From: Promethearchaeia archaeon | GTDB taxonomy: Archaea; Asgardarchaeota; Lokiarchaeia; Sigyniarchaeales; SOKP01 | Length of the DNA: 64,000 nucleotides | Assembly: GCA_029856105.1 (NCBI GenBank) | Contig: JAHQWH010000189.1 | Coordinates: 32,001-96,000 of the forward strand | Direction: 5' to 3' | Shown here: positions 4,988 through 55,810 of the stretch, one piece after another | Layout of the letters: each line of letters starts with the position of its first letter | Numbering within the stretch: the first letter of the stretch is position 1 | Translations under genes and position numbers: made by a program | The notes under the pieces: generated by a model | Told to the model about the DNA's origin: nothing | What the model saw: the letters and a program-made list of their open reading frames with translations, nothing else | Databases searched by the model: none

Positions 4988-5650
4988 ATGCATGGCATTG
5001 ATAAAATATTTATTGAAACTAATGAAATTAGGCTTGAAGCCGAGTTTTTTCAGTTGAAAAACTCGGTTGTTTTAATTTGTCACCCACATCCTCAATTTTT
5101 CTGGGTTTGAAACCCTAAAAAGGGAAAATATGGGGGCAATATGTACAACAATGTCGTATCTGGCGTTTTTAATATGTGTGTTCAAAATAAAATTTCATGT
5201 TTACGGTTTAATTTCAGGGGAGTAGGAAGTTCAACAGGAAGTCATACTAGTGGAAAGGGCGAGTTAAGCGATGTGGAAGCTTGTATTGATTTTTTAATAA
5301 CCGAGAAAAATATTGAAAAAATAATAATTTGTGGTTATTCCTACGGCGCTGCTATCGGGTGTTCTGTTGTAAATTTTTCTAAGAAAATAATTGGTTATTG
5401 TGCAATTTCTTTTCCTTGGGATTTTATGGGCTCAAAATATAAAAAACTTTCTCAAACTAAAAAACCAAAATTGTTTATTCAAGGGAATCGAGATACTATA
5501 GCACTCTATGAAAATTTTGAAAACCATTATAATTTCTATTTCGAACCAAAAAAGTATAATATTATTAATGGAGCCGACCACTTTTACTCGGGATTTGAAG
5601 AAAATGTCGCACAAGAAGTAAGCGAATTCTACAATTCGATTACAAAATAA
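4988..5650 (+). CDS. Alpha/beta hydrolase, spliced: join(4988..5094,5128..5650), 209 aa
   Basis: ATG 4988 gives MHGIDKIFIETNEIRLEAEFFQLKNSVVLICHPHPQ; removing 5095-5127 yields the family motif HPHPQYGGNMYNNVV; downstream RFNFRGVG.S.G, GYSYGA nucleophile, QG..D and GADHF. Confidence 0.88.
5095..5127 (+). other. Candidate 33-nt bulge-helix-bulge mRNA intron
   Basis: Central helix UCCU(5089-92):GGGA(5122-25), bulges CAA(5093-95) and AAA(5126-28), inner helix UUUUU:AAAAA capped by a GGGUU/AACCC hairpin, outer helix CCCA.A:U.UGGG; contains in-frame TGA at 5108-5110. Confidence 0.85.
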
Positions 5651-5704
5651 GATATTATGAGATTTTTAATAAGAAAAGAGAAGTATCAGAAAAACTGATG
5701 TTCC

Positions 5705-6103
5705 TTAAATGGAAGATAACTTTTCTAAATCTGGTCTAGCATTTTCAACCGCCCAATCGAGGAGTTGGTCGTAATAAGATTCAATTTCATTAGATTCCGG
5801 ATTTTTTGATAGTACCGCTAAAATGAATTGCGTTTTTTTATCTGACATAATTATATTTCGACAAATAATAAAATCTTCTGAATATTTAATCTTTATACTA
5901 GAAAGTAAAGATAAATTCATCTCCTCAGACGCGTTTGATGCAGCATCACTTAATAATGAGCCCATGGCTGCAACAACCCGCTCATCAATGTCTTCTGATT
6001 TTTGCGATGCTAAAACTAATCCTGCATTTGTAGCAAGAAGAGAAGCCCTAAAATTACCATTATCATTTAATTCTTTGAGAACTTGGTCAAGTCTGCTTAC
6101 CAT
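5705..6103 (-). CDS. Roadblock/LC7 domain protein
   Basis: ASLLAT..GLVLAS....DE..VAAM roadblock pattern, 132 aa. Confidence 0.8.
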   Translation of the reverse strand: MVSRLDQVLKELNDNGNFRASLLATNAGLVLASQKSEDIDERVVAAMGSLLSDAASNASEEMNLSLLSSIKIKYSEDFIICRNIIMSDKKTQFILAVLSKNPESNEIESYYDQLLDWAVENARPDLEKLSSI

Positions 6104-6204
6104 AAGAAATATTCACTCATTAAGTATTATAAACAATTTTATAAAAATTCTCTCTTAACTTTGATATTATAAATATTATGAACAATTTAGTATTAAATTT
6201 TACC

Positions 6205-6729
6205 TTATGTCTTTTTTATGTTTATTACAAATGTGGATAAAATATTATCTTCGTCAATCTTTAACGTTATTACGCTTGGCCTCGCTATAGGTTTTTCAAA
6301 GCCTCTTTTTGGAATAGGTGCTTTAGGTTTTGTAGGACTTCCCGGATTAATTAATAAAGTATTGTAAGGTGTACCTGCTATGAGTGGCTGATGTGTATGT
6401 CCAAAAATAAGGATGTGGAGGTTATTTCGCTTAAAAAAGTCTTCTAAATTATCAGGTTTCTTGTGAATTACACCAATGTTATAATTTTCAACATGGAATT
6501 TAATAAATGTCTCTAATCCCGTTATTTCATCTAAATCGCTTTTTACGCATCTAACTGGAGCGATATTTTTCAAATCTTCTAAAAAAAAAGGTTCACATAC
6601 ATCTCCAGCATGTATGATTTCGTCAACATCTTCGAAGGCTTCTTTTAATTGATTAATTAAAGTTTCAACTAGATTAGGTTCGTCGTTCTTTGTTATGTGA
6701 GTATCTGAAATTATCCCTAATTTTACCAT
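6205..6729 (-). CDS. YfcE/Vps29-like metallophosphoesterase
   Basis: ISDTH, HAGD, GHTH.P, INPGS motifs; the usual GN motif is replaced by SD. Confidence 0.85.
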   Translation of the reverse strand: MVKLGIISDTHITKNDEPNLVETLINQLKEAFEDVDEIIHAGDVCEPFFLEDLKNIAPVRCVKSDLDEITGLETFIKFHVENYNIGVIHKKPDNLEDFFKRNNLHILIFGHTHQPLIAGTPYNTLLINPGSPTKPKAPIPKRGFEKPIARPSVITLKIDEDNILSTFVINIKKT

Positions 6730-6741
6730 TTTTTTTCTTTG

Positions 6742-7812
6742 CTATAATATAATTACTCCAATAGTAAAAATAATCAAACCGAATAAAAAATCCATCATTA
6801 TCCTAACAATTTTTTTAAACCAATTCTCTCCGATCTCATTATCATTTTTGAAATATGAAAAAAATTCTTTAAAACCTATTGATAAAATTTCTTTGATTCG
6901 AGAGAATTGCCAAACAAACAAAAATATACTAATAACTAATAATGGAACATAAACAATGAAGCTCATTAATGAAAAATCGTTACCGTGTATAAAATTCCAA
7001 ATTGAATGGGCAGAAATAATATTATTTACTGCATGAGCAAAAATTACTGGAAATATCCAACGTCGTCTTAAAACCAGCATCGCAAGAATAATTCCTACTA
7101 AAAAAGTCTGTAAAAACCAAATAATAGGAAAAATTATTGGTAACCCGATACCAGGTATCGCAAAAATATAATTAAAATGTCCTAAACCAAAAAAAAAGGA
7201 AGTAACAATTACGGCAGACATTTTTTTAAAGTAAACACTTCCTCTATTAGCTAAAAAACCTCTAACTAATGTTTCCTCATATATAGCGACAGAAATTTGT
7301 ATTATAATAACAGATAGAAGAAACACGTAATAACTCTCCATAAAGTAAGAGTTGTAAGATAATTCATCCGTAGGGTTTATAACTATGGACGAATAAGATA
7401 GCATTTCAGGTAAAAATAAATACCCAAAAAAATCTAACGGTATAAAAATTAAAAAAAGTAATAATATCCCATATAAAAGCTGATATTTAAAATTCTTTTT
7501 TGTAATATTAAATAAAGATAAAAAGTTCTTTGAAGGGCTGACATCCTCTTCTAAAATTAATTTTTTTCTTTGAGGCACCATTATAAAATTGGATAAATAT
7601 AGAAATAAAGGAATCGCAACGATAATAATTGCCGCTCTCACTATAAAAAAAAGAGGTTCAAAAATTATAGATTCAAAATCAATAAAGAAAGGTAGTAGAA
7701 AAGTAGGAATTAACATAAAAATAAAGATTCCAAGAAAAATAATTAGAACTTCGAAGAAATAATATATTCGTTGATTAAATATTGTTTTTAAAGGGTTTTT
7801 AGGTCTTCTCAT
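6742..7812 (-). CDS. CPBP (CAAX/Abi) intramembrane metalloprotease
   Basis: Multiple TM segments; EE...RG, FG..H and H...N motifs. Confidence 0.88.
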   Translation of the reverse strand: MRRPKNPLKTIFNQRIYYFFEVLIIFLGIFIFMLIPTFLLPFFIDFESIIFEPLFFIVRAAIIIVAIPLFLYLSNFIMVPQRKKLILEEDVSPSKNFLSLFNITKKNFKYQLLYGILLLFLIFIPLDFFGYLFLPEMLSYSSIVINPTDELSYNSYFMESYYVFLLSVIIIQISVAIYEETLVRGFLANRGSVYFKKMSAVIVTSFFFGLGHFNYIFAIPGIGLPIIFPIIWFLQTFLVGIILAMLVLRRRWIFPVIFAHAVNNIISAHSIWNFIHGNDFSLMSFIVYVPLLVISIFLFVWQFSRIKEILSIGFKEFFSYFKNDNEIGENWFKKIVRIMMDFLFGLIIFTIGVIIL

Positions 7813-7870
7813 AATTTATCTATCTCTAACAACAAGTTCTATGAATAACAAATAATTAAATCGAAATATA

Positions 7871-8845
7871 TTAAATTTTTTTATTTGAAGCATTCAAAAA
7901 AAAATTTATTTCCTTTCTACTTGGAATCCCATTTCTTGCCCCTAATTCTTGTATACAGTTCCCAGCTACAAAATTTCCGATTTTTACATTATTTTTAAGG
8001 TGTTCAAATTTTAAGTTTATATCACGAACAAAACCATAAATGAATCCCGCTGAAAATGCGTCACCCGCTCCAGTAGTGTCAATTAAACTACTTACTTTTA
8101 TTGGATGTAGAAGTTCTGCTCTACTGTTGGTTAGTAATAATGCTCCTTTTTTGCCTAATGTAGTAATAATAACTTGTATACCTAAATTAAATAGGGTACT
8201 CGATTTTTCTTGGATTAAATCTTCGTTTAAATCACATTGTTCTATATCAAAAAGAGTTGCATATTCATTTTGAGAAAGAATTAATATATCAATTTTCTCC
8301 AGCAATTTTTTAATGTTCTTTAAACCTTGTTCGCTGATTAACATACCAGGATTTAAAATAACAGGTATTTTGTTGTTTCTACAAATAATAGCGGCTTCAA
8401 TAAATGGTTCTAAATTTTTTAAGCTACTTAAGAAAATTACTTTTGTATTTATCAATTCTTTTTCTAAAAGATCTTCCTTTGAAAGATAATTTGCGGCACC
8501 ACTATGAGCATATATTCTTCGGTCTCCTTTTTCATTTAAAGCAATATAGGCAGAACCAGTTCCATGGTGCTCAGAATATTTAATAAACTTAGTAGCAACA
8601 TTTACTCTCTTGAAATCGTTAAGTATTTTTTCGCCAAAAGTATCGTGTCTCCCTAACTTTCCAATGAACGCTGTTGATAATCCCATTTTCGCACAAGCAT
8701 AAGCAGTATTAGCGGCTGCTCCACCAGATAATAAAGTTAAGTCTGATACGAATACTTCATCATCATCAGCAGGATGTCTTATTACTTGAGCTACCATATC
8801 AACAAGGGCGGCCCCTATACAAATTACGTCAAAAATCTCAATCAC
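7871..8845 (-). CDS. PfkB-family carbohydrate/nucleoside kinase
   Basis: GGAAAN.A and DTTGAGDAF signatures. Confidence 0.92.
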   Translation of the reverse strand: MIEIFDVICIGAALVDMVAQVIRHPADDDEVFVSDLTLLSGGAAANTAYACAKMGLSTAFIGKLGRHDTFGEKILNDFKRVNVATKFIKYSEHHGTGSAYIALNEKGDRRIYAHSGAANYLSKEDLLEKELINTKVIFLSSLKNLEPFIEAAIICRNNKIPVILNPGMLISEQGLKNIKKLLEKIDILILSQNEYATLFDIEQCDLNEDLIQEKSSTLFNLGIQVIITTLGKKGALLLTNSRAELLHPIKVSSLIDTTGAGDAFSAGFIYGFVRDINLKFEHLKNNVKIGNFVAGNCIQELGARNGIPSRKEINFFLNASNKKI

Positions 8846-8867
8846 ATTATATATTTTTTAAATGAAT

Positions 8868-10049
8868 TTAATAGTAATTAAAAGATCCAAATTCTGATTT
8901 TATTTCTAGTTGGTTTTTGTTCTTATGAGACGATTTTTCACATTGCCCGATGATTTTTGATTCGATGTTGTATTTTTTAGCAATATCCATAATTTCTTTA
9001 GCAATTGACTCATCACAACAAATTTCCATTCTATGACCCATATTAAACACTTGATACATTTCTTTCCATAAAGTTTCTGAAGATTTTTTTATAATTTCAA
9101 ATATTTTGGGAATTTTAAAAAGATTATTTTTAAGATAAGTCATACCTTTACCAAAATTGAGAATTTTCGTCTGGCCCCCTCCCGTGTTATGTATTATTCC
9201 GTGAATTTCCTCTCGATATTTTTTTAGTACATCCAACAATAATGGAGCATAAGTTCTAGTCGGAGACAATAAAGCTTCTCCTACAGTCAAACTCAATCCT
9301 TTGATCTTATCGGTAAGTTGATAATTCCCAAAAAAGATAAATTGTTCATCAAGGTTTTGATCATAACATTCAGGGAATTTGTTATAATATGCATGAGATA
9401 GAACTCCATGTCTGGCTAAAGTCAATCCGTTACTTCCTATTCCGCTATTAAATTCGTCTTCATACGATGCTTTTCCATCACTAGCGAATCCAACTATCAC
9501 ATCTCCTGCCTTGATGTTTTCAGCATTAATAATATCTTCTCTTTTCATACTGGCAAAAACTGAGGCATCAATTAGTAGAGTTTTTACAATATCTCCTACA
9601 TCAGCAGTTTCGCCTCCGCACATTACGACATTTAGACCAAATTCAGACAGCTTTTCGCTATATGTAAAATATTCTTTAATTATTGTACTAATAACTTCGC
9701 CCGAGATAAACCGTTTATTTCGACCGATATTATTAGATATAAAAAAATTACCAGTAGCTCCAACGCACAACATATCATCAATATTCATAACAATAGCGTC
9801 TCTTACAATCCCCCTAAAAACAGATATTTTGTCCGTTTCTTTATAATACATATAAGCTAGGCTTGCTTTTGTTCCTGCTCCATCTGAATGAAATATTGAA
9901 CAATAATCATCCCTCATACCTACATCTTGTACTATTTTACAAAATGCTCCGGGGAATAATCCTTTATCAATCGATTGGATTGCTTTATGAACATCTTCCT
10001 TTTTTGAGGAAACCCCTAATTGAGAATATATATCTTTTTCGTCAGACAT
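8868..10049 (-). CDS. purM: Phosphoribosylformylglycinamidine cyclo-ligase (AIR synthase)
   Basis: DGAGTK, GGETADV, GSNG.TLAR, LSPTRTY, MYQVFNMG motifs. Confidence 0.9.
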   Translation of the reverse strand: MSDEKDIYSQLGVSSKKEDVHKAIQSIDKGLFPGAFCKIVQDVGMRDDYCSIFHSDGAGTKASLAYMYYKETDKISVFRGIVRDAIVMNIDDMLCVGATGNFFISNNIGRNKRFISGEVISTIIKEYFTYSEKLSEFGLNVVMCGGETADVGDIVKTLLIDASVFASMKREDIINAENIKAGDVIVGFASDGKASYEDEFNSGIGSNGLTLARHGVLSHAYYNKFPECYDQNLDEQFIFFGNYQLTDKIKGLSLTVGEALLSPTRTYAPLLLDVLKKYREEIHGIIHNTGGGQTKILNFGKGMTYLKNNLFKIPKIFEIIKKSSETLWKEMYQVFNMGHRMEICCDESIAKEIMDIAKKYNIESKIIGQCEKSSHKNKNQLEIKSEFGSFNYY

Positions 10050-10051
10050 TT

Positions 10052-11410
10052 TTACAAATTATGTTTATTTTTCAGAAATTTTAATAAATTTTCTAAAAGC
10101 TCAAGAGATTTTCCTATGTAGTTATGTGGATTTAATAAATCATCAATTTCATCTTTTGTAAAACTTTCCGTTATATTTCCATTTTCTAATAAGATTTCTT
10201 TAATAAAACGATTTTCTTTTTTTGCTTTTATTGCTGCTTTTCTTAAAATTTCATGCCCTTCTTGTCTTCCGATACCTTTTTCAACTAAATTCAACATGAT
10301 TTTTTCAGATAAACAAGCTCCCTTGGTAAGATTTAAATTTTCTTCTATTCTTTCCTCATCAAATTCAACTTCTTGGATAATACTTGTTAATTGTATTATC
10401 ATAAAATCTAACAGTATGAAATTTTCAGCAAAAATTATCCTTTCGTTAGCAGAATTCGTTAAATCTCTTTCATCTTCTAATATAATATTATCTAAAGCGG
10501 GTATAATATTGGATTTTAAAACCCTAGCTAAACTACAAATTCGTTCAGATTTATGGGGATTTCTCTTATGAGGCATCGTCGAGCTTCCTACTTGGGTCTT
10601 TTTGAAAGGTTCAAACATCTCAGCGATTTCATTTCTTTGGAGCACTCGAAATTGCCTTGCGACTTTAGCTAGTGATTGTCCGATCAACGCTGTTAAAAAG
10701 AGAACTTCAGCGTGACGATCTCTCTGAATTATTTGGTTCGCGATTAAAGCTGGATATAATCCAAGCTCTTTCGTTATGAAATTCTGAATTTCAATACCTT
10801 TCTCTCCGAAACTCGCCATATTTCCTACGGCACCCGACATTTTACCATATGATATCCGATTTAGAGTTTCTTTTAACCTATCTAAATGTCTATCTATTTC
10901 ATATGCCCACACGCCGAATCTCATCCCATATGTAGTTGGAATAGCGTGTTGTCCGTGAGTTCTTCCTATACAAACAAGCGATTTCTTATCTTGTATAACT
11001 TTTATTAGTTCTATTAATAGCTTTTTTAAAGAATTAGTGATATATGTTATAGCTTCTTTTAACTGTAATCCTGTTGCTGTATCTTCAATATCGTAACTTG
11101 TTGCCCCCAAATGGATGTATTTTCCAGCATTTCCTTCACATTGTTCTGATAAAGCCTTAACCATAGCCATTAAATCGTGATGAATTTCATTATCAATCTC
11201 TTTTACCCGATTTAATTTAACATAATTCAAATTAGCTTTCTTACATATCTCTTCTGCGGACTCTTGAGGAATATTGCCCCATTTAGCATGTGCTTTTGCT
11301 AATACTGCCTCAACTTTTAACCAATTCTCTAATTTTTTTTCTTCTGTAAAAATTTCAGCTATTTTAGTTCGATAACGAGTTTCAACTGGATTAATAAATT
11401 TATGATCCAT
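10052..11410 (-). CDS. purB: Adenylosuccinate lyase
   Basis: H.GATS.D, GRTHGQHA.P, GSSTMPHKRNP signature. Confidence 0.97.
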   Translation of the reverse strand: MDHKFINPVETRYRTKIAEIFTEEKKLENWLKVEAVLAKAHAKWGNIPQESAEEICKKANLNYVKLNRVKEIDNEIHHDLMAMVKALSEQCEGNAGKYIHLGATSYDIEDTATGLQLKEAITYITNSLKKLLIELIKVIQDKKSLVCIGRTHGQHAIPTTYGMRFGVWAYEIDRHLDRLKETLNRISYGKMSGAVGNMASFGEKGIEIQNFITKELGLYPALIANQIIQRDRHAEVLFLTALIGQSLAKVARQFRVLQRNEIAEMFEPFKKTQVGSSTMPHKRNPHKSERICSLARVLKSNIIPALDNIILEDERDLTNSANERIIFAENFILLDFMIIQLTSIIQEVEFDEERIEENLNLTKGACLSEKIMLNLVEKGIGRQEGHEILRKAAIKAKKENRFIKEILLENGNITESFTKDEIDDLLNPHNYIGKSLELLENLLKFLKNKHNL

Positions 11411-16237: not shown

Positions 16238-17311
16238 TTATTCTAAATAAAATTTTTCATCAATGTTTGAAATTGTTGAATGTTGCGATAGGAAATTTAA
16301 TAAAAACTCTCTATCTTCGTTATTTTTTTGTTTTGAGAGTCTAATAACGAAACTTAATTCTTCTTCACTTTCTATATCTATCCAATGTAATCTCTCAAAA
16401 TATTTCAGAATGTTTAAAATAAAGTTAGAATCTTTTGAATGGTTTTCCACTTCTTTTATAATTAGGTTAAACCATTTGTTTTTAACTTTATTATCTTTAA
16501 AGCCAATAAAAACGCCCTTATCCTTCGCCATTTTCATCCACAGGTAAAAATCCTCATTGTTAATTATTTTATAATAATTTGTCAAAAATGATAAGTTATG
16601 TTCTATAAGCTTAAATCGTTCCCTTCGAGCTATATCTTTTTGAAAAAGTAAATCTGTTGCTATCATATCGAATCTGCAATATAAATCTGTTTCAGAAAAG
16701 GTCATATCTGTTATTTTGACGCCTAAAATAGCTAGTAAAGCCGCGTTAAATTTGCAATTCTCGAAAAACAAATTTCTATAGGCTCCAATATATTCAAAAA
16801 CACCTTTAGCGTATTTAGAATTTTCCTCTGAAAAAATATCTATTCTTATTTCTTTTGTTAATTTATTCTTTAAATAGAATTTTTTAGCTCTCTCGAACCT
16901 TTCCTTTAACTCTCGATAGTCAAATGGTTTTAAACCACCTGTAAAATACTTTCTAATTCCGAACAAAAATCGAGGAAATTCATGAAAAGTAAAGTTTGTG
17001 TATCTATTCGATTTTAAAATGAACTCGTAAAATGGAATGATTCCCTTGAATGTAAACTGATCGAAAAAATCTTTAGTTTCCTCGTCAATAAATCTTTTAA
17101 AATCATCTAAAGATTTTCCACTTTTAAAACTTTCCATGGTTTGTTCCATAACATAGTTATAAAAAGCCGATACGCTTTTAAATCTCTTGTCATCGGGATT
17201 TTTTCTTTGATTCACTTTAACGTATCTTTCTATCCACTCCTTAAGCGCAGGGGATAAAGATATCGTTTGTTGAGCTGTTTTTTTATTAGATAGATATTTT
17301 TTATTAGTCAT
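16238..17311 (-). CDS. Hypothetical protein with N-terminal RHH-like DNA-binding segment
   Basis: 357-aa ORF; QTISLSPALKEWIERYV...SVSAF looks like an RHH beta-helix-helix. Confidence 0.55.
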   Translation of the reverse strand: MTNKKYLSNKKTAQQTISLSPALKEWIERYVKVNQRKNPDDKRFKSVSAFYNYVMEQTMESFKSGKSLDDFKRFIDEETKDFFDQFTFKGIIPFYEFILKSNRYTNFTFHEFPRFLFGIRKYFTGGLKPFDYRELKERFERAKKFYLKNKLTKEIRIDIFSEENSKYAKGVFEYIGAYRNLFFENCKFNAALLAILGVKITDMTFSETDLYCRFDMIATDLLFQKDIARRERFKLIEHNLSFLTNYYKIINNEDFYLWMKMAKDKGVFIGFKDNKVKNKWFNLIIKEVENHSKDSNFILNILKYFERLHWIDIESEEELSFVIRLSKQKNNEDREFLLNFLSQHSTISNIDEKFYLE

Positions 17312-27942: not shown

Positions 27943-28890
27943 ATGCCAATTTGTTATCATTGTGGAGTGGAAGTCCCTGAAACATTCAACTGTACTAAAT
28001 GTGGTCAAAATTATTGTTCTTTACATAAAAATCCTATTGATCACGAATGTAATATTGTAATCGAAAGTCAACATTTACAACAATATCAACAATCACCTCC
28101 TACTTATGTTGAAAGCTCTCAAATTCCGTTTTCTCAACAAGAGCATATGTATCAGCAACAATTAACTCCAAGCGAAGTGCGTGGAACGACAGATGGGACT
28201 TATACGTGGTATCGGCAAGAACAAACAGTTCCAGAAAACGCTTTCGATCCAGACTCTGGAATCTCGTTCAAGGGTATATTTCTGGCTCATAAATCTGAAT
28301 TAACTCATTTCTTAATTGCAGGGATAATGATATATGCCATAGGATTGTTGAGCTTTTATAACAGTTTAGGCCCTACATATTTTTGGACTTTATTTGTACT
28401 TGCTGCTTTTTATGTGACTGCTTTTCTCTTTCACGAATTAGGGCACCGCCAAGTAGCTGTTCATTTTAAATTGCAAACAAAATTTAGATTACTTACATAT
28501 GGTTTGCTGATGACATTAATCTCTCTTGGAAGGTTTGCTTTACCTGGAGCGGTTGTCGTTTTAGGTCTTGACAAGATTAGTAGAAAAACGGGATTATGTA
28601 AAGCAGCAGGTCCTTTCGTAAATTTGGTGTATGGCACACTATTGTTTCTAATTTCATTTATAGTTCCAAGGTCATTATATCCACTGAATTATATCTTTTG
28701 TATAGGAGCTTATTTAAATTTCATGTTAGGATCATTCAATATGATCCCTTTTGGAATTTTGGATGGGCAAAATATATGGAAATGGAAAAAGAAAGTATAT
28801 TTTGGATTGATTGGGTCATTAGTACCATTGCTTATTATAACAATGGTTATTACAAATACTTCCTTAAGTCTAAATCTCTATCATCCATAA
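27943..28890 (+). CDS. AN1-type zinc finger + M50 (site-2) intramembrane metalloprotease
   Basis: C..C...F.C..C...YC..H....H.C, Q/P-rich linker, HELGH, AAGP..N, NMIP...LDG. Confidence 0.88.
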   Translation: MPICYHCGVEVPETFNCTKCGQNYCSLHKNPIDHECNIVIESQHLQQYQQSPPTYVESSQIPFSQQEHMYQQQLTPSEVRGTTDGTYTWYRQEQTVPENAFDPDSGISFKGIFLAHKSELTHFLIAGIMIYAIGLLSFYNSLGPTYFWTLFVLAAFYVTAFLFHELGHRQVAVHFKLQTKFRLLTYGLLMTLISLGRFALPGAVVVLGLDKISRKTGLCKAAGPFVNLVYGTLLFLISFIVPRSLYPLNYIFCIGAYLNFMLGSFNMIPFGILDGQNIWKWKKKVYFGLIGSLVPLLIITMVITNTSLSLNLYHP

Positions 28891-30879: not shown

Positions 30880-32082
30880 TTACACCAAATCTGAGGGTAA
30901 AATCGGGTTAACGAGCAGATTTCGAAAGTCCTTAACTGAAGGGAATTCACCATATTTATTTATTATGAGTTTTGCTCCAGAATTATAGGAAAAAACAGTT
31001 GTTGAGTATATAGGGTTAGAAAGTGAATTTATTTGATTTTTTATGTTTTCTTCGTTAAAAATTTCAAAGTTTGTTGCATATTGAATTAAGTCCTCATTGT
31101 TCCACTCGTCAATAAGAGCATGATAAGCGAAATTATACCAAAAAAGCGATAATTTTCCTTTTACTTTGCTTTGTGCTATTAATGCTTCAATAGAAGATTC
31201 TATTGACGGGTCTGGACATAATTCTTGTAAACTAACTTCAGCTTGTTCTTGATAGGAAGTAAAGAGCGCATTCGCGGCTAAATCTGCAATTCCTTCACTA
31301 ATTATTAATTTAGGTGAATGTAGCAGCAATATTGAGTGTTCGAACTGATTTAACTCGCGATATAACCTCTGTTCTTTGACCACAAATTCCGTGTGGTGTC
31401 CAGGATATCCTTCGTGAGTGGCAAAAAACAAAAACGCCGTCCAATACATACTATAATTCGGATTGACTTCTAATCGTGAGCGAAAATTACCCAAGTACCA
31501 TTCATAGCATGGGAATTTTATTTTTTGATTTTTTACTAACTCTACAATGATGTGTTCTTTTTTAGGTAGAAGATCGACAAACAATTCTTTAGTTTTCTTT
31601 TCTGCGATGTTAAGCGCTTTTTTAAACAATACAAAAACATTCGCTTCAGGAACCGTTCGTTGCACTCTTATTTCATTCATTCGCTCTTTTAAGCTTCCAG
31701 ATCCCTTATAAGCCTCGTTAAACTCTTCTTTTAAGTTATCTAATTCAGATTCTTTAACGGGCCGTAAGGCTACATCGTATAACCTTAAAGCTTGTTCCTT
31801 AATAGTAATCTCGATACCGTTTAAAATCTCGATCGAAGTCCTCATCGCCGTTAACATCTTTTCTAAGTATCGCTCGCGATTTTTGTCGTAACCTTGTTTA
31901 AACAAATCTTTTTGTAAAGCTTTGCAATCGGTTAAAAGCTTGTTTGGTGAAATTATTACCTCATTGTCAACGATTTTACGTAATTTTTTAGGACCAATAT
32001 AAAAATCTACATATCCCTTATTGTGTTTGTCTATGTGAAGTGTTAAACACAGAAATCTTTTTCCATATTCAGATAATTTCAT
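30880..32082 (-). CDS. DUF885-like putative zinc metallopeptidase (paralog 2)
   Basis: HEGYPGHHTEF; end-to-end similarity to 1824-3032. Confidence 0.7.
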   Translation of the reverse strand: MKLSEYGKRFLCLTLHIDKHNKGYVDFYIGPKKLRKIVDNEVIISPNKLLTDCKALQKDLFKQGYDKNRERYLEKMLTAMRTSIEILNGIEITIKEQALRLYDVALRPVKESELDNLKEEFNEAYKGSGSLKERMNEIRVQRTVPEANVFVLFKKALNIAEKKTKELFVDLLPKKEHIIVELVKNQKIKFPCYEWYLGNFRSRLEVNPNYSMYWTAFLFFATHEGYPGHHTEFVVKEQRLYRELNQFEHSILLLHSPKLIISEGIADLAANALFTSYQEQAEVSLQELCPDPSIESSIEALIAQSKVKGKLSLFWYNFAYHALIDEWNNEDLIQYATNFEIFNEENIKNQINSLSNPIYSTTVFSYNSGAKLIINKYGEFPSVKDFRNLLVNPILPSDLV

Positions 32083-42013: not shown

Positions 42014-42627
42014 ATGGGAAGGAGAAAAAGAAAGCAACAATCTTATAAAAGAGTCAAAACAGTCCCCAAAATTTTTACTTGCCCAAACAGGTAATTATGG
42101 TTTTCCCATTTACCTTGGATTGTGGGGAAAAGGCAATAAAAGTAGAAAATTTACGAAAAAGTGTTATAGCTACAGTGAAATGTGGTCATTGTGGTTTAAC
42201 AAAGGAAGTTCTGGTTAATTCCATATCAGAACCTGTTGATGCTTTTGGAGATTTTATTGATATTCATTATGCTGATCAAGAACTTCAGAGATTAGAAAAA
42301 CGCATTGAGAAATTAATAAAACAAAACGAATGGGGGGAACTTGCATTATCCTACTCAATTTTATCGGATATTTGTAAACTTAAAGTTGTTCAAGCTTTAG
42401 AAGACGAAGATAAAGTAGATCTTGATGAGGTTAATAAATGGAAAATTAAAGTTGAAGAATATAAAAGGCTTGAAAAAGATGCTCTACTTCAATTAGACAC
42501 GCTTGAATTGGAAAAGGGTATTAGAACAGACGACGAATCTTTATTTTCAGAGCACGATGAGAGTGATATGAAAAAAGAAAAGAAAATTGAAGATATCTTT
42601 GACGATCCTGGTTTTCTTGAATTTTAA
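42014..42627 (+). CDS. elf1: Transcription elongation factor Elf1, spliced: join(42014..42088,42121..42627), 193 aa
   Basis: Exon 1 MGRRKRKQQSYKRVKTVPKIFTCPN + exon 2 CGEKAIKV...VKCGHCGL...EPVDAFGDFID gives the Elf1 basic N-terminus, Zn ribbon and helix; unspliced exon 1 stops at TAA 42092-42094. Confidence 0.9.
42089..42120 (+). other. Candidate 32-nt bulge-helix-bulge mRNA intron
   Basis: Central helix CCAA(42083-86):UUGG(42115-18), bulges ACA(42087-89) and AUU(42119-21), inner helices GGUAA:UUACC and AUGG:CCAU, outer helix CUUGC:GUGGG. Confidence 0.88.
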
Positions 42628-48478: not shown

Positions 48479-48586
48479 TGTTATTCAACACCTTTTATTT
48501 TAATTACTTTTTTGGGTACAATTTTAATACTTTTTATACACAAATTATAATAGAATTTATTTATAAGTCTTGGTTTTTAGATAATA

Positions 48587-50175: not shown

Positions 50176-50879
50176 TTTTGAAATAACTTCTTTCTCACAA
50201 AGGATTTTTTGTTTGCAAGTTTTTTTAGTACCACTTCGGTAGATTCGTTAAGATCAAGTAATCTTTTTAGAAATACCCCCGTTCTACCGTGTTTTTCTCT
50301 TTTTAAAAGAACTCTTTTTCGTTCATTAATTAAATCAATACTTACATTTACTTGTTTTGCTGCCAAATGTTCGTTTCCAATTATTGAATACTCTTCATGA
50401 CCTTCTAAGGTAGGTTTAATTAATACTAATCTCTTGTCTATTCCAGGGACTCTGAGATTATCTTCTAATTGGTTTAGATTGACCTTTCCTCCAAAATCAT
50501 AAAATTCCTCTGATTTTTTATCAAACTTAGATAATGGAATAGTAATACTCTCTAACTCGTTTAAATATATGTACAATTTTAATGTATCCGTTGGTGTTGC
50601 CATTATAATTTCTCTAAAGTAATTGTTGATACCATATTTTTCAAGAATAATTTCTATTTGATAAGGTGGTATTAATTGTAAAAAGATAATATCGATATCA
50701 CTATCCTTATGAACATCTCCACGAGCAACACTTCCGTAGATAAACGGGTTTAAACCTTCTTTTGTAAACATCTCCAGTAATTCTCTAGACCGTTTTCTTT
50801 TTTGATTTAAGAGATTCAAATGATCTCTAGAGTATGCTACGGTATTATAATAATCTCTTAAAATTGTATCTTTTTTCAT
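50172..50879 (-). CDS. Pol-beta-superfamily nucleotidyltransferase (archaeal)
   Basis: YGSVARGDV...SDIDI, EFY.FGG, RVPG.DKRL, GRTGVF. Confidence 0.88.
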   Translation of the reverse strand: MKKDTILRDYYNTVAYSRDHLNLLNQKRKRSRELLEMFTKEGLNPFIYGSVARGDVHKDSDIDIIFLQLIPPYQIEIILEKYGINNYFREIIMATPTDTLKLYIYLNELESITIPLSKFDKKSEEFYDFGGKVNLNQLEDNLRVPGIDKRLVLIKPTLEGHEEYSIIGNEHLAAKQVNVSIDLINERKRVLLKREKHGRTGVFLKRLLDLNESTEVVLKKLANKKSFVRKKLFQK

Positions 50880-50885
50880 CAGAAA

Positions 50886-51740
50886 TTATTCTTTTTTCTC
50901 TAATTTACTTATATTATCTATGTTTTTTATTAATATGCTTAAAAGTACCGTTTCGTAATATTTGAATGTGCTTTTTGCTTTTTGAATGGTACGATATTTG
51001 AATTTATTTGAATTTTTCAGGGTTTTATCGCTTAAAATCTTCTTATTTGAATTCCTATTTTTTAAAAATGGATTTAAACGCTCACTGAAAATAATAAATA
51101 ATTGGAACTGTGGATTTGAAACAGTTTCTAAAGTTTGCATAATTATATGATTAGCCAAATTTAACCGTGGATTAATTAAAATTAGTTTAATGTTGTTTGA
51201 ATCTTTTGTAATAAAATTATAGGGAAAGCTTTTTTTATCAAAATTCACGACAACATATTTCTGACTCAATAATTGAAATTCTTGGTTATAAATCGAGAAA
51301 AATGAAGGTATAATTTGTTGAGATTCTCTTTTAATATCTCTAATCGCTTTATTTTTTCCTTTATCAGCTTTTATTTTAAGCCAGATGTTAACTACATTAA
51401 AACCATAAGTGCTTAAACCTTCCGTCAATATTTTCAATAACATTTGTTTTCTATGCGTTCTTATTATAAAAATTGTAGGTTTAGACGAGATTTCTTCTTG
51501 AATTACTTTGGATTTAGTCAAATTCCACTTTTTTATGTAAATTGAGGGGCGATTTAAGTTAAAACTAAGAGCCTTAACCGTTGTTCGCGTCAAAAACTCG
51601 TTTGACAAAGAAAACCTCCATCTATACGCTTCTTTAAATATTTTTACGCTGATTAGAAGTAAAACTAACAAAAATATTATGATGGTATCAACTAAAATCC
51701 AATCCACTCGAAAGATATCAAAGGCCATAAGATTATCCAA
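50886..51740 (-). CDS. Hypothetical protein with N-terminal TM helix
   Basis: 284-aa ORF. Confidence 0.6.
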   Translation of the reverse strand: MDNLMAFDIFRVDWILVDTIIIFLLVLLLISVKIFKEAYRWRFSLSNEFLTRTTVKALSFNLNRPSIYIKKWNLTKSKVIQEEISSKPTIFIIRTHRKQMLLKILTEGLSTYGFNVVNIWLKIKADKGKNKAIRDIKRESQQIIPSFFSIYNQEFQLLSQKYVVVNFDKKSFPYNFITKDSNNIKLILINPRLNLANHIIMQTLETVSNPQFQLFIIFSERLNPFLKNRNSNKKILSDKTLKNSNKFKYRTIQKAKSTFKYYETVLLSILIKNIDNISKLEKKE

Positions 51741-51750
51741 CTTTTATTAA

Positions 51751-52065
51751 TTAATCTACAACTTCACTAATCCAATTTAAATACGTTTCGGAACCCTTAT
51801 TAATCTTCAAACCAATGCATTCCGGTTCAGAATAGGAATGAAGTTCTTTAACTTTCTGAATTATTAATTCTCCCTTGCTTTCCTTAGTTTTAATTATTAA
51901 TAGATGTTCGTTGTCCTCTTCAATATTTCCTTTCCACGAATAAATTGATAGTATATTTTGAATTATGTTTACGCATGCGGCTAGCTTACTTTTAACCAAA
52001 ACTCTTGCTATTTTTTTACCTTCTTCAATATTTGGAACTGTAACTAAAAAAACATAAAAATCCAT
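51751..52065 (-). CDS. cutA: Divalent-cation tolerance protein CutA
   Basis: LAACVNI, SIY.W.G.I, IKT, HSY..PE, YL.WI. Confidence 0.95.
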   Translation of the reverse strand: MDFYVFLVTVPNIEEGKKIARVLVKSKLAACVNIIQNILSIYSWKGNIEEDNEHLLIIKTKESKGELIIQKVKELHSYSEPECIGLKINKGSETYLNWISEVVD

Positions 52066-52197
52066 TTTAATCCCTTAGTCGTTATATCTAATATTTTATA
52101 ATGTACATCTTAATTTCAATTTATTTAAGAAATTAGCGCCATTAGAAAATTGATTTATTCTGTAGTATTTAAATACATTATTTTGAATACATTATAA

Positions 52198-52830
52198 ATG
52201 ATAATCTCTTTTTTTTTAATCACAATCAATCAACCTATAAATAATTTAGAAGAATGGCTAAAAGTGATTGATAATTCTTTTATTGCATTTAATTCCTTTG
52301 TAGAATTGTTATTTGGGTATTTTAAATACATTTTTTTTGGAATTTTATTAATTATTGGAATTTTAACTCTGTTAAGTTTAAGAGGTACTTACTTTTTAGA
52401 AAGAATCAGATATAGTAAGGAAGAAAAGTTAGAAGATAATCCTATGACTAAACCACGATTAATCTTAGGCACAAGTTATATTATAATATCTTTTGGAATT
52501 CTATTCGATTGGTTCACATACTTTTTGATTGTTGTTTTAGATCCCTTGCCAGATCGTCTAATTTTCAATTTTATCCAATTATCGGATACAATTAACCTGT
52601 TTGATCTCAACAGAATTTCTGATATTAGTCAAGTAATTTACCCATACGAGAAAACAATATATTACATCGTTGCTTTATTCTCACTTGGTGCCATAATAGA
52701 TATAACAATAAACATTTGTCAGATAATTAACGCTCGAAAAAGCGTAAGGAAATATTTTTTTTTTTTAATCGGTGGAATCGTAGACGGGATATTAACTGGC
52801 TTTACAACTTGCCTTCCATTATTCCTTTAA
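52198..52830 (+). CDS. Hypothetical membrane protein
   Basis: About 4 TM segments. Confidence 0.65.
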   Translation: MIISFFLITINQPINNLEEWLKVIDNSFIAFNSFVELLFGYFKYIFFGILLIIGILTLLSLRGTYFLERIRYSKEEKLEDNPMTKPRLILGTSYIIISFGILFDWFTYFLIVVLDPLPDRLIFNFIQLSDTINLFDLNRISDISQVIYPYEKTIYYIVALFSLGAIIDITINICQIINARKSVRKYFFFLIGGIVDGILTGFTTCLPLFL

Positions 52831-52950
52831 TTAAAATTTCCCTTTTTCTTATTTTTTTTTGATTTTAAAACCGGTTTTAACAAAAAATGAAGATATAAAT
52901 TATTAAAATTTATATAAATAATAAAAAAAAAATTATTATACTTTGAGGAG

Positions 52951-53682
52951 TTGATTGTAATCCTTCACAACGTTTACCTAATATCAAATTTTACGGGCAT
53001 TTGTTTAGTTCATAGGAAGTATGGGACTATAGAGTTTAACCAAGATTTAGTATCTGGTTTTTTAACAGCATTAAAAGATTTTTCAGTAGAGTTCTCGAAA
53101 GGATCGGGCGAATTGAAAATCATTGATATGCAAATATTTTATCTCCTTCTTGTTTTTAAGGAAGGAATCCTGTGCACAGCAGCAGCTGATAAAAATGATG
53201 ATGCAAAAATAACCCATAAAGTTCTTAGTGAGATTATAGATAACTTCCTGGAAAAGTTTGGAAACCTAATGGACTGGTCAGGAGATGTCAGGATGTTCAA
53301 GGGTTTTGAAAATGTTATGGATGTTATGCTAAAGGACGGTCATGTGTCAGAAGTCCCCTTAAAGATTCCCATCCTGAAGATATTTGAGAAAGATTTTGTA
53401 AAATCACGGAAGCAGATCGCTAAAAAAGGACTGGTATTGTCAGAAGAGGATTTAAGGGACGCTCAGAACCAGAAACCGATGTGGACATCAAAGCGACTTC
53501 CCTCCCAAGTAATTACACAAGGATTCTTGAATAAGGAACAATTTAAAATTGCTCATTTAGCGGATGGATTTCACACTATTTCGGATATCGCGGAGGAAGC
53601 AGGGGTGCCACGATCAGAGATAGATGTAATGATCGATGATCTGGATGACTTAGGGCTTTTAAAGTTTATCGATATTAAATAA
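52951..53682 (+). CDS. Longin-like domain protein with C-terminal winged helix
   Basis: VYLI...G.CL..R.Y.....DLVSGFLTAL..F longin pattern; DG.HTISDIA...G......MI..L...GLL wHTH. Confidence 0.7.
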   Translation: MIVILHNVYLISNFTGICLVHRKYGTIEFNQDLVSGFLTALKDFSVEFSKGSGELKIIDMQIFYLLLVFKEGILCTAAADKNDDAKITHKVLSEIIDNFLEKFGNLMDWSGDVRMFKGFENVMDVMLKDGHVSEVPLKIPILKIFEKDFVKSRKQIAKKGLVLSEEDLRDAQNQKPMWTSKRLPSQVITQGFLNKEQFKIAHLADGFHTISDIAEEAGVPRSEIDVMIDDLDDLGLLKFIDIK

Positions 53683-53854
53683 GCAGTAATGGTTTTCTTT
53701 TTATCTAATTTCGGGAAATAAGAAATTGGGTTTAATTTTAAATTCCTCATTATATTTTAAAAAAAAATCTTCGATAAGATTTTTTAAATTATTTCTTGGT
53801 TTTAAAAGTCGTAAACATAAAATTTATGAAAATAATTTCACTTATTTAGTTAGT

Positions 53855-55327
53855 ATGAATGTAATTAAGATTGATGAGAACATTTACGAAATACCGCCAA
53901 AAACTTTAATGGCGCGTGTAGAAGGCAAAATCGCGAAGTTTCAAATGAAAGTGCCGGTACATATTTATGCGAACGAGTACATATTGGAAAAGATCAAGAA
54001 CGACAGAACGCTTGATCAGATTAGCAACGTTGCTTGTCTTCCAGGAATACAGAAGCATGCAATTGCGCTCTCCGATGCTCATCAAGGATATGGATTTTGT
54101 ATAGGGGGTGTTGCTGGAACTGACGCCGAATCGGGTATGATTTCGCCGGGGGGTGTAGGATACGATATTAATTGTGGTGTAAGGTTATTAAGGACAAACC
54201 TTCACCTTAAAGACATCAATAGCTCAATTCCCAGTTTATTAAATGTTATTTTTAAGAATATACCATCAGGTTTAGGAAGTAAAGGTAAATTAAATATAAG
54301 TTATTCAGATTTAGATAATGTATTAGATAATGGTTTGAATTGGGCTTTAGAAAATGGTTATGCGATTGAAGAGGATATATTGCACTGTGAAGAAAACGGT
54401 TTTTTAAAGGATGCTAATTCAAAAGTGGTTTCCCAGAAAGCTAAGCAGAGGGGGTTAAAGCAACTTGGTTCTTTAGGAAGTGGCAATCATTTTATAGAAA
54501 TCCAGAAGGTTGATAAAATCTACAATGATTCTATCGCAAAAAAATTAGGAATTTTTGATAAGGATCAAATAACAGTTATGGTTCATACAGGGTCGCGAGC
54601 TCTTGGTCATCAAGTATGCACCGATTCTTTACGAAATGTCGAACAGGCAATGAAAAAATACGATATCAAAGTTCCTGATCGCGAATTAGCTTGTGTACCA
54701 GCTGATACTCCCGAAGCAAAAAATTATTTAAGTAGCATGGCGTCTGCTGCAAATTTTGGGTTCAACAACCGTCAATTAATTACCCATTGGTTAAGACAAT
54801 CTTTTCAAGATTATTTTAGAAAGAGTTTAGACGAGCTAGACTTTAAATTAATTTATGGTGTATGTCATAATATTTTAAAAATAGAGGAACACGAAGTTAA
54901 TGGTAAAAAAATGAAATTAAATGTTCATAGAAAAGGAGCAACCAGAGCTTTTCCACCAGGACACCGAGATCTACCGCAAGATTATAAAAATATTGGTCAA
55001 CCAGCTTTGATTCCTGGTACTATGGGATCAGCTTCCTACTTATGCGTTGGAAGGCCAAAAGCGATGGATCTTTCTTTTGGATCCACCGCTCATGGATCTG
55101 GTAGAGTAATGTCAAGATCCAAAGCTAAAAAAATATATTGGGGTTCTAAAGTTAAAGAAGATTTAAAAAATAGAGGAATAATTGTTAAAGCTGCTTCACC
55201 TAAAATAATTGCTGAGGAAGCTCCAGGGGCATACAAAGATATAGATCAAGTAGTACAAGTAAGTCAAGACCTTGGAATCATAGAAAAAATTGTAAGGTTA
55301 ATCCCAATAGGGGTTGTAAAAGGTTAA
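53855..55327 (+). CDS. rtcB: RNA-splicing ligase RtcB
   Basis: DAHQGYGF.IGG, GVGYDINCG, LGSGNHF.E, HTGSR, HN, HRKGATR, PG.MG..S, HG.GR, EEAP.AYK; ATG 53855. Confidence 0.97.
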   Translation: MNVIKIDENIYEIPPKTLMARVEGKIAKFQMKVPVHIYANEYILEKIKNDRTLDQISNVACLPGIQKHAIALSDAHQGYGFCIGGVAGTDAESGMISPGGVGYDINCGVRLLRTNLHLKDINSSIPSLLNVIFKNIPSGLGSKGKLNISYSDLDNVLDNGLNWALENGYAIEEDILHCEENGFLKDANSKVVSQKAKQRGLKQLGSLGSGNHFIEIQKVDKIYNDSIAKKLGIFDKDQITVMVHTGSRALGHQVCTDSLRNVEQAMKKYDIKVPDRELACVPADTPEAKNYLSSMASAANFGFNNRQLITHWLRQSFQDYFRKSLDELDFKLIYGVCHNILKIEEHEVNGKKMKLNVHRKGATRAFPPGHRDLPQDYKNIGQPALIPGTMGSASYLCVGRPKAMDLSFGSTAHGSGRVMSRSKAKKIYWGSKVKEDLKNRGIIVKAASPKIIAEEAPGAYKDIDQVVQVSQDLGIIEKIVRLIPIGVVKG

Positions 55328-55372
55328 ATTTTTATTTTATTTATTTTCCTATATGAAAAAATTATTTTAAAG

Positions 55373-55810
55373 TTAAATATCAAATACTATATCAATTATG
55401 GTGCTTGCGTGTTTTTCTACTATATTCATAAAGGAATAAGTTATAGCCTTAACTTCAATTCCTATTTCGTGTTTATCCAAATCGAATTTTTCACCTTTTA
55501 GAGTAGCTTGCAACTTGTAATTATCGTTGAATTTTTCAATTTTACTTACATAGATTTGACTAAAAACAAGCTCATCTACATCAAAAATATACAAAAATTC
55601 CGAGAGAAAATCAAATAATAGGGCTTCTTTATCCTCAGCCTTAATTGTTATTTTTTTTTCGATTTTAGGAGTTATTTTTTTTAAGTCTGGCGTTATAGTC
55701 GCCATTAAACTATAAGCGGTTTGCGAAAAGGCTTCTTCTAATGATGAGCCCCAACTTCTTACCTGAACATCTGCAGTATGCTCTCTAAACTCAAATCCGG
55801 CTTTTTTCAT
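55373..55810 (-). CDS. Archease (RtcB cofactor)
   Basis: EHTADV, LEEAF, GE.FD...H...EVKA.TY, VFDI; convergent with rtcB. Confidence 0.95.
   Translation of the reverse strand: MKKAGFEFREHTADVQVRSWGSSLEEAFSQTAYSLMATITPDLKKITPKIEKKITIKAEDKEALLFDFLSEFLYIFDVDELVFSQIYVSKIEKFNDNYKLQATLKGEKFDLDKHEIGIEVKAITYSFMNIVEKHASTIIDIVFDI

What the first reader, a model, noticed from the sequence alone, without database searches (positions are those of the whole stretch)
4988..55810. Candidate system: protein-coding genes carrying tRNA-type (BHB) introns in an Asgard-like archaeon
Seen in sequence: two unrelated genes in 64 kb (alpha/beta hydrolase and Elf1) each carry a 32-33 nt hairpin insertion that blocks translation, forms a canonical 3-4-3 BHB at the exon junctions, and restores a conserved motif to the nucleotide when cut after the second base of each bulge. 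The two introns share structure but not sequence. rtcB (53855-55327) and archease (55373-55810) are in the same window. Established knowledge: BHB motifs are cut by the archaeal splicing endonuclease EndA and joined by RtcB/archease; the classic archaeal mRNA example is the cbf5 intron of some Crenarchaeota; metazoan XBP1 splicing also uses RtcB. Inference: two in 64 kb suggests mRNA introns may be numerous in this genome, missed by annotation as truncated or frameshifted genes, and could be a post-transcriptional control layer relevant to the origin of eukaryotic splicing. I cannot verify from the sequence whether this has been reported before.
Basis: partly seen in the sequence, partly recalled or inferred. 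Interest (0 to 1): 0.95.

Follow-up and report, generated by a model that had tools for sequence, protein, structure and literature searches.

The report
tRNA-type mini-introns in Asgard protein genes
Two protein genes of this Loki-type (Promethearchaeota) Asgard archaeon are each broken by a 32-33-base hairpin with the exact shape that the archaeal tRNA-splicing enzyme cuts. Relatives show it must be removed from the mRNA, a kind of splicing published so far inside only one archaeal coding sequence (cbf5).

Summary
Observation confirmed. An alpha/beta hydrolase (intron 5095-5127, 33 nt, in-frame TGA) and the only good Elf1 gene (intron 42089-42120, 32 nt, frameshifting) each carry an insert that folds into a canonical 3-4-3 bulge-helix-bulge. 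Cutting after the second base of each bulge gives HPHPQ-YGGNM and CPN-CGEK. Intronless orthologues in congeners have exactly these junctions.

The hydrolase insert is in 16 of 22 congeners and the Elf1 insert in 10 of 24. Both vary in sequence and length (28-33 nt) and show compensatory changes. Every copy blocks translation. Elf1 exon 1 stays under strong purifying selection.

RtcB and archease lie in the window, and two EndA paralogues lie elsewhere in the genome.

The inserts are very probably EndA/RtcB-spliced mRNA introns. No RNA evidence was found for these two genes.

"Numerous" needs tempering. A census without any motif, against 930 kb of a congener, points to about 10-20 such introns per genome, not hundreds. 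A BHB plus ORF-fusion scan cannot tell them from decoys.

I confirmed three further cases against relatives and three more by translation only.

Earlier notes of this scan report the same phenomenon on other DNA of this genome. The papers I could search hold no Asgard report.

The parts
4988..5094 (+). Alpha/beta hydrolase exon 1 (35 codons plus 2 nt, ending ...CHPHP-Q)
   Evidence: An ATG-initiated exon 1 ending in CHPHP is kept in all 16 intron-bearing orthologues.
5095..5127 (+). 33-nt BHB intron of the hydrolase gene, with an in-frame TGA at 5108-5110
   Evidence: The register and pairs hold in 16 orthologues. Covariation is shown. Intronless orthologues read cat cct caa tat gga.
5128..5650 (+). 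Alpha/beta hydrolase exon 2 (YGGNM... to the stop)
   Evidence: Pfam Abhydrolase_11, Abhydrolase_1 and Hydrolase_4. Public annotations call only a 168-169-aa truncated protein from the ATG at 5141.
42014..42088 (+). Elf1 exon 1 (MGRRKRKQQSYKRVKTVPKIFTCPN)
   Evidence: Pfam Zn_ribbon_Elf1 model positions 1-27. pN/pS is 0.069 among intron-bearing genomes.
42089..42120 (+). 32-nt frameshifting BHB intron of the Elf1 gene, with TAA at 42092-42094
   Evidence: Ten congeners carry it at 28-32 nt. Covariation is shown. Intronless orthologues read tgc cca aat tgt ggg.
42121..42627 (+). Elf1 exon 2 (CGEK..., the rest of the zinc ribbon plus a C-terminal helical extension)
   Evidence: Pfam Zn_ribbon_Elf1 model positions 28-76. 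Public gene calls are 176 aa (truncated) or 193 aa (intronless).
53855..55327 (+). rtcB (3'-phosphate RNA ligase). The frame is open from 53726; I did not verify the start at 53855.
   Evidence: Pfam RtcB, E 2e-167, full model.
55373..55810 (-). Archease (RtcB cofactor), tail-to-tail with rtcB
   Evidence: Pfam Archease, E 5e-42, full model.

Best explanation
Both inserts are archaeal bulge-helix-bulge (tRNA-type) introns inside pre-mRNAs.

Proposed steps:
1. After transcription, the last bases of exon 1 pair with the 3' end of the intron to form the 4-bp central helix.
2. Exon 1 also pairs with the start of exon 2 to form the outer helix.
3. The intron's own hairpin supplies the inner helix.
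4. This presents two 3-nt bulges to the splicing endonuclease. Here that is most likely an (alpha-beta)2 enzyme made from the two EndA paralogues.
5. The enzyme cuts after the second bulge base on each strand.
6. RtcB with archease joins the exons and probably circularises the intron.
7. Only the spliced mRNA encodes the full hydrolase (HPHPQYGGNM) or Elf1 (CPNCGEK zinc ribbon).

Shown here: the motif, its register, its conservation and covariation, the exact junctions in intronless orthologues, and the presence of the enzyme genes.

Inferred, not shown: cleavage and ligation in the cell, the subunit make-up of the endonuclease, and the fate of the intron.

The introns are heritable and are gained and precisely lost within one genus. 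They sit at low density, about 0.3-0.5% of genes.
For: (1) Both sites form a canonical 3-4-3 BHB with the natural topology, each bulge lying 3' of the central helix on its strand.

(2) Intronless orthologues in the same genus and in other families have exactly the junction that the BHB cut predicts. Examples are G005, 94% identical in Elf1, and G012 for the hydrolase.

(3) The hydrolase intron is in 16 congeners at 30, 31 or 33 nt, and the Elf1 intron in 10 at 28, 30 or 32 nt. Length ignores the reading frame.

(4) All 16 hydrolase copies block translation: 13 in-frame copies carry a stop and 3 are frameshifting.

(5) Covariation:
- Hydrolase: 89% of cells paired against at most 69% when partners are slid; 8 pairs with changes on both sides; 0 of 500 shuffles reach the observed score.
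- The exon-exon outer helix also covaries through synonymous changes (Pro CCA to CCG with Tyr UAU to UAC).
- Elf1: 87% against at most 47.5%. The central helix shows a compensatory CCAA/AUGG to CCGA/ACGG change, in which the exon change is synonymous.

(6) Elf1 exon 1 has pN/pS 0.069 among intron-bearing genomes. All hydrolase exon 1 copies keep an ATG and an open frame.

(7) The machinery is present. RtcB and archease are in the window. Two ~200-aa EndA paralogues each have the N and C domains, one with and one without the catalytic-site His by eye. This matches the (alpha-beta)2 type reported for Asgard (PMC5829648).

(8) More cases exist in the same genome.
- C10:60290-60319 is absent from a 97%-identical orthologue.
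- C74:8084-8114 and the FGGY kinase insert came from a motif-free census.
- uL11 (two inserts) and a radA paralogue were seen by translation only.

(9) The cut rule, between the 2nd and 3rd bulge bases, is the one verified by cDNA for cbf5 (PMC2738675).
Against: There is no RNA-level evidence for these two genes. The predicted spliced junction strings were not found in JGI metagenome or metatranscriptome contigs. Every full-length intronless form in the protein database sits in genomic context.

The minimum-free-energy folds do not return the BHB itself. Thermodynamic z-scores are weak, -0.2 to -2.1.

The Elf1 introns of the second clade have only 3 of 4 central pairs, so they are a relaxed motif.

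Genome-wide, BHB-shaped motifs that fuse ORFs are no commoner than mirror-image decoys. The motif alone therefore carries little weight, and the case rests on the comparative data.
Confidence: 0.87

Rival explanations
1. The inserts are inactivating insertions and the genes are pseudogenes, or they survive only as truncated proteins started from internal start codons.
For: Unspliced, both genes are broken. Annotation pipelines do-aa and 176-aa truncated products.
Against: The same insert persists at the same site in 10-16 species. Both exons stay intact, Elf1 exon 1 is under strong purifying selection (pN/pS 0.069), and compensatory changes keep the BHB. Elf1 is the only copy above the Pfam cut-off in the genome. 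A truncated Elf1 would lack half of its zinc ribbon, and the truncated hydrolase would lack its HPHPxxGG motif.
Confidence: 0.04
2. The ribosome skips the hairpin by translational bypassing, as in T4 gene 60 or the mitochondrial 'byp' elements, so no RNA cutting is needed.
For: The inserts are short hairpins. A stop codon lies early in the Elf1 insert (TAA, one codon after the junction) and in the apical part of every in-frame hydrolase insert.
Against: The take-off and landing codons do not match: CAA against AAA in the hydrolase and AAC against GAU in Elf1. The conserved, covarying features are exactly those of the endonuclease substrate: two 3-nt bulges, a 4-bp helix and exon-intron pairing. 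Bypassing has no need for these. The same design interrupts tRNA genes of this genome.
Confidence: 0.03
3. The hydrolase insert is simply read through, either as an 11-residue insertion with TGA recoded (selenocysteine or readthrough) or as an assembly or sequencing artefact.
For: In G000 the hydrolase insert is 33 nt, in frame, with a single TGA.
Against: Three congeners have 31-nt frameshifting versions, and others use TAA or TAG. The Elf1 insert shifts the frame. The inserts recur in many independent assemblies, with divergence.
Confidence: 0.01

Closest known systems
BHB intron in the cbf5 (pseudouridine synthase) pre-mRNA of Desulfurococcales and Sulfolobales (Watanabe 2002; Yoshinari 2006; Yokobori 2009, PMC2738675)
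   Same: It is an intron inside an archaeal coding sequence, flanked by a BHB. It is cut between the 2nd and 3rd bulge bases by a hetero-oligomeric splicing endonuclease. Its interior is variable and its borders conserved, and it shows lineage-specific loss.
   Different: The genes differ (alpha/beta hydrolase, Elf1 and several others, not cbf5). The phylum differs (Promethearchaeota, Asgard). There are several genes per genome. Both motifs here are strict BHB in G000, whereas most cbf5 introns are unconventional. Gains are recent, down to a single species (C10 intron). Splicing here is not shown experimentally.
Archaeal tRNA and rRNA BHB introns, including the heavily interrupted tRNA genes of Asgard archaea (PMC11291895; bioRxiv 10.64898/2026.10.13.758758)
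   Same: The motif, the presumed enzymes (EndA, RtcB, archease) and the short size are the same. This genome also has many intron-bearing tRNA genes.
   Different: The host RNA is a translated message. The exon half of the motif is therefore built from codons and evolves through synonymous changes, and splicing has to precede or compete with translation. The papers I read on Asgard introns deal with tRNA genes only.
BHB intron in the 5' UTR of Haloferax volcanii HVO_1309 mRNA (Schwarz et al. 2020, PMC7714728)
   Same: It is an mRNA substrate of the archaeal splicing endonuclease, confirmed in vitro.
   Different: It lies in the untranslated leader and does not interrupt a reading frame.
Unconventional cytoplasmic splicing of XBP1/HAC1 mRNA (IRE1 cut, RtcB or Trl1 ligation)
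   Same: It is non-spliceosomal excision of a short intron from an mRNA. Ligation uses RtcB in metazoa, and the excision changes the reading frame or the product.
   Different: The nuclease (IRE1) and the RNA motif (twin stem-loops with 7-nt loops) are different, and the event is stress-regulated. No regulation is shown here.

Membership tests
Archaeal BHB (EndA-dependent) intron | [quoted passage not shown] | tested here: met
   Hydrolase: UCCU/GGGA with bulges CA^A and AA^A. Elf1: CCAA/UUGG with bulges AC^A and AU^U. The central helix is 4/4 in all 16 hydrolase orthologues. It is 4/4 in four of the ten Elf1 orthologues and 3/4 in the other six.
Archaeal BHB (EndA-dependent) intron | Flanking outer (exon-exon) and inner (intron) helices | tested here: met
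   The outer helix has 5 of 6 pairs and the inner helix 5 contiguous pairs in both genes. Both helices covary.
Archaeal BHB (EndA-dependent) intron | Cutting after the 2nd base of each bulge yields the functional mature RNA | tested here: met
   The predicted joins encode HPHPQ-YGGNM and CPN-CGEK, the same protein junctions as in the intronless orthologues. The nucleotides also match except for one synonymous base in Elf1. The same holds for C10, C74 and G012:C11.
Archaeal BHB (EndA-dependent) intron | The host encodes the splicing endonuclease and the RtcB ligase with archease | tested here: met
   Two EndA paralogues with N and C domains. RtcB and archease are in the window. I judged the catalytic residues only by eye.
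Archaeal BHB (EndA-dependent) intron | Cleavage and ligation demonstrated (spliced RNA, circular intron, in vitro cut) | not testable with these tools
   The junction strings are absent from JGI contigs. No read-level RNA data are at hand for these genes.
cbf5-type pre-mRNA intron (orthologous intron) | Located in cbf5 at the conserved crenarchaeal site | tested here: not met
   The host genes are an alpha/beta hydrolase and Elf1. These are independent insertions, not orthologues of the cbf5 intron.
Translational bypass element (T4 gene 60 / byp) | Matching take-off and landing codons flanking the skipped stretch | tested here: not met
   CAA against AAA (hydrolase) and AAC against GAU (Elf1), read.
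Self-splicing group I or group II intron | A ribozyme core of some hundreds of nucleotides | tested here: not met
   The inserts are 28-33 nt.
Repeat or MITE-like mobile insertion | Multiple similar copies in the genome, and target-site duplications | tested here: not met
   blastn-short of five introns with their flanks finds only themselves. The C10 intron also hits its copy on the duplicate contig C26. No direct repeat flanks the C10 insertion when compared with the empty site in G009.

The most novel reading that the evidence does not exclude
The EndA/RtcB splicing of these mini-introns would be a regulated, obligatory step of gene expression in Asgard archaea. It would act as a gate between transcription and translation for genes including Elf1, uL11 and RadA. 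The genus would then be a living model of intron gain, precise loss and exon-encoded splice signals in the prokaryotic lineage closest to eukaryotes.
Probability: 0.12. Interest if true: 0.95.

Novelty: new member of a known kind. Interest (0 to 1): 0.78.

Why it matters
For more than twenty years cbf5 has been the only archaeal coding sequence known to need tRNA-type splicing (PMC7714728). This finding adds several unrelated genes in the archaeal lineage closest to eukaryotes. Some of them are core information-processing genes.

Practical points:
- Annotation pipelines truncate these genes: 169 aa instead of about 208-213, and 176 aa instead of 193. Asgard proteomes and marker sets are therefore slightly wrong.
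- The genus offers dated gains and precise losses, for example an intron present in one species but absent from a 97%-identical orthologue. These make the mechanism of BHB-intron gain and loss testable.
- Messages that must be spliced before translation raise the question of how a cell without a nucleus avoids translating the unspliced form.

This mechanism is not the spliceosomal one, so any link to the origin of eukaryotic introns is indirect.

Tried and rejected
(1) Genome-wide strict BHB scan (4/4 central pairs, at least 4 of 6 outer and inner pairs, lengths 14-120) with an ORF-fusion test, compared with a mirror-topology decoy. Counts were equal at every threshold, for example 90 against 89 for lengths 20-39 at E <= -5 kcal/mol.

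(2) Relaxed scan (no outer-helix requirement), with and without a codon-usage score for both flanks. Again there was no excess over the decoy. The score thresholds also removed the two true introns, because their exons are short.

(3) Synteny comparison of the whole window with four congeners, to find further polymorphic inserts. None was found. The indel near 28504 is an ordinary in-frame 14-residue deletion.

(4) Search for spliced RNA.
- Exact junction strings in JGI contigs: nothing.
- Full-length database proteins: all lie in genomic context.
- The spliced G000 proteins could not be looked up, because a joined sequence has no reference.

(5) Census candidates rejected on inspection:
- C10:33937, C155:23332 and C94:22555 are upstream or intergenic DNA inside stop-to-stop frames.
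- C161:16634, C145:3211, C222:14113 and C59 are shadow frames or decayed sequence.

(6) Selenocysteine or readthrough, translational bypass and a repeat element were considered and rejected.
Full report
**What is there.** The window is G000:C191:32001-96000, from a 3.66-Mb, 32% G+C assembly in 238 contigs. Close homologues are named Promethearchaeota or Candidatus Lokiarchaeota MAGs.

The frame from ATG 4988 reads ...LICHPHPQFFWV, stops at TGA 5108 and goes on in the same frame as NPKKGKYGGNMYNNVV.

The frame from ATG 42014 reads MGRRKRKQQSYKRVKTVPKIFTCPNR and stops at TAA 42092. The rest of Elf1 (CGEKAIKV...) continues in another frame from 42121. Pfam places Elf1 exon 1 on model positions 1-27 and exon 2 on 28-76 of Zn_ribbon_Elf1. 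It also confirms the hydrolase, RtcB and archease.

**The motif.** I first drew the BHB with the wrong handedness and found no fit. With the natural topology, outer helix, 4-bp helix, 3-nt bulge, inner helix on each strand, both sites are canonical.

| | Hydrolase | Elf1 |
|---|---|---|
| Outer helix | CCCACA/UAUGGG, one C.A mismatch | CUUGC/GUGGG |
| Central helix | UCCU/GGGA | CCAA/UUGG |
| Bulges | CA^A, AA^A | AC^A, AU^U |
| Inner helix | UUUUU/AAAAA plus apical hairpin | GGUAA/UUACC plus apical hairpin |
| Intron | 5095-5127 | 42089-42120 |

Cutting after the second bulge base gives cat cct ca|a tat ggg (HPQYG) and cca aac|tgt ggg (PNCG). Energy minimisation alone does not return the BHB and its z-scores are weak. 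In my scan a motif of this quality in a fixed register has a frequency of about 2.4e-4.

**Comparative test.** I searched 40 relatives with each exon 2 and read the DNA upstream.

*Elf1.* Ten of 24 congeners carry an insert at this site. Three have 32 nt, as here. Seven have a diverged but recognisably homologous 28-30-nt version. Fourteen congeners and all 13 genomes of other families with a match have none. They read ...TG(C/T) CCN NNN TG(C/T) GGN..., for example tgc cca aat tgt ggg in G005, whose protein is 94% identical.

*Hydrolase.* Sixteen of 22 congeners carry the insert, at 30, 31 or 33 nt. Six congeners and the other families read cat cct caa tat gga or caa ttt gga.

Intron length thus ignores the reading frame. 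All 16 hydrolase copies block translation: 13 in-frame copies with TGA, TAA or TAG, and 3 frameshifting copies.

**Covariation.**
- *Hydrolase alignment:* 89% of cells pair in the proposed structure, against at most 69% with partners slid. Eight pairs change on both sides, and 0 of 500 shuffles reach the observed score.
- *Inner helix:* it runs through UUUUU/AAAAA, UUUCUU/AAGAAA, UUCU/AGAA, UUUC/GAAA and UUUCUA/UAGAAA.
- *Outer helix:* this exon-exon helix covaries through synonymous changes (Pro CCA to CCG with Tyr UAU to UAC).
- *Elf1:* 87% paired against at most 47.5%. In G024 the central helix changes from CCAA/AUGG to CCGA/ACGG, and the exon change is a synonymous Pro codon.
- *Selection:* Elf1 exon 1 has pN/pS 0.069 among intron-bearing genomes. 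Every hydrolase exon 1 keeps its ATG and an open frame.

These results exclude artefact, pseudogene and readthrough. They point to selection on the endonuclease substrate itself.

**Machinery.** RtcB and archease are tail-to-tail neighbours in the window. The genome has two ~200-aa EndA paralogues, each with the N and C domains. One has, and one lacks, a His at the catalytic position by eye. This agrees with the (alpha-beta)2 enzyme with broad specificity reported for Asgard archaea (PMC5829648). Many tRNA genes of the genome carry introns.

**History.** A two-gene tree is a rough guide only, because it is built from the same genes.
- *Hydrolase intron:* it sits in the basal lineages of the genus and in most others, with several losses.
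- *Elf1 intron:* it is confined to one clade, with losses in G005 and G012.
- *Metagenome contigs:* some hold intronless alleles about 95% identical, in ordinary genomic context.

The introns are unique sequences, not a repeat family.

BHB-shaped, ORF-fusing sites are as common for a mirror-image decoy as for the true topology. The top strict hit did turn out to be real. C10:60290-60319 is a 30-nt in-frame insert with a stop in a DUF2229 gene. It is absent from all relatives, including a 97%-identical orthologue, at exactly the predicted site.

I then ran a census without any motif. ORFs from 930 kb of congener G012, which lacks both window introns, were aligned to G000 by tblastn.
- *Contigs chosen because they hold the three known genes (348 matched ORFs):* only those three appeared.
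- *The other 560 kb (616 matched ORFs):* two appeared. One is the FGGY-kinase insert at C191:~9158 (SITNQ|RETIV). The other is new, a 31-nt frameshifting insert at C74:8084-8114 in an epimerase/dehydratase-like gene (GHVN|PVGP).

Two in 616 scales to roughly 12 per genome (Poisson range about 1.5-43), counting only introns that G012 lacks. The reverse census found a 30-nt intron specific to G012 (G012:C11:66653-66682). uL11 (two inserts) and a radA paralogue are also split at conserved motifs on my own translation.

The phenomenon is therefore real and spans several genes, but at about 0.3-0.5% of genes. This window, with two, and this contig, with three, are locally rich.

**Known or new.** In the papers I could search, mRNA BHB introns are reported for cbf5 of Crenarchaeota and for the 5' UTR of Haloferax HVO_1309. 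Work on Asgard introns concerns tRNA genes. Searches combining Asgard or Lokiarchaeota with BHB, mRNA, EndA or RtcB gave nothing further. PNAS 2011 (PMC3064391) could not be read.

Earlier notes of this scan report the same kind of intron in other genes of this genome: uL11, radA, histone, thiolase, FGGY kinase, LMW phosphatase and mevalonate kinase. I used them as leads and checked uL11, radA and FGGY myself.

**Limits.** I found no spliced RNA for these two genes. Splicing, the endonuclease's subunit make-up and any regulatory role remain inferences.

Noticed in passing
G000:C10:60290-60319 (also C26:2515-2544): A 30-nt canonical BHB insert with a stop sits in a DUF2229 (CoA-enzyme-activase-like) gene. 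It is absent from every relative searched, including a 97%-identical orthologue in G009, so the gain looks very recent. C10 and C26 carry identical copies of this region, which suggests redundant contigs in the bin.
   Followed up: yes
G000:C74:8084-8114 (minus strand): A 31-nt frameshifting insert splits GHVN|PVGPRSCYDE of an epimerase/dehydratase-like gene. It is a relaxed BHB (3 of 4 central pairs) whose predicted cut restores the G012 sequence. The motif-free census found it.
   Followed up: partly
G012:C11:66653-66682 (minus strand; within locus L206): A 30-nt BHB insert with a stop (GFLFI|TWYTPW) is present in congener G012 but absent from G000. Different species of the genus therefore carry introns in different genes.
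   Followed up: partly
window 5083-5088 with 5129-5134, and orthologues (alignment A1 columns 14-19 with 60-65): The exon-exon outer helix of the hydrolase BHB covaries through synonymous codon changes (Pro CCA to CCG with Tyr UAU to UAC). RNA structure here constrains synonymous sites in two exons.
   Followed up: partly
window 1809-3032 (+), 16238-17311 (-), 30880-32082 (-): Three ORFs of 357-407 aa have no Pfam family. They lie in stretches that do not align with the otherwise collinear regions of one or more of four congeners, so they are strain-variable islands of unknown nature.
   Followed up: partly
window 28504-28533: G000 lacks 14 residues of a hydrophobic segment that four congeners have in the AN1-finger membrane protease gene (27943-28890). 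It is an ordinary in-frame deletion, not an intron.
   Followed up: yes
L155 (ENA contig, 808 nt) against L163: This intronless Elf1 contig has an exon 1 resembling the G000 clade and an exon 2 nearly identical to the other intron-bearing clade. It is either a recombinant allele or a chimeric low-coverage assembly.
   Followed up: no
window 5141-5650 and 42079-42627: Public gene calls for intron-bearing orthologues are systematically truncated, 168-169 aa for the hydrolase and 176 aa for Elf1. In the protein database the length classes mark whether the intron is present.
   Followed up: partly
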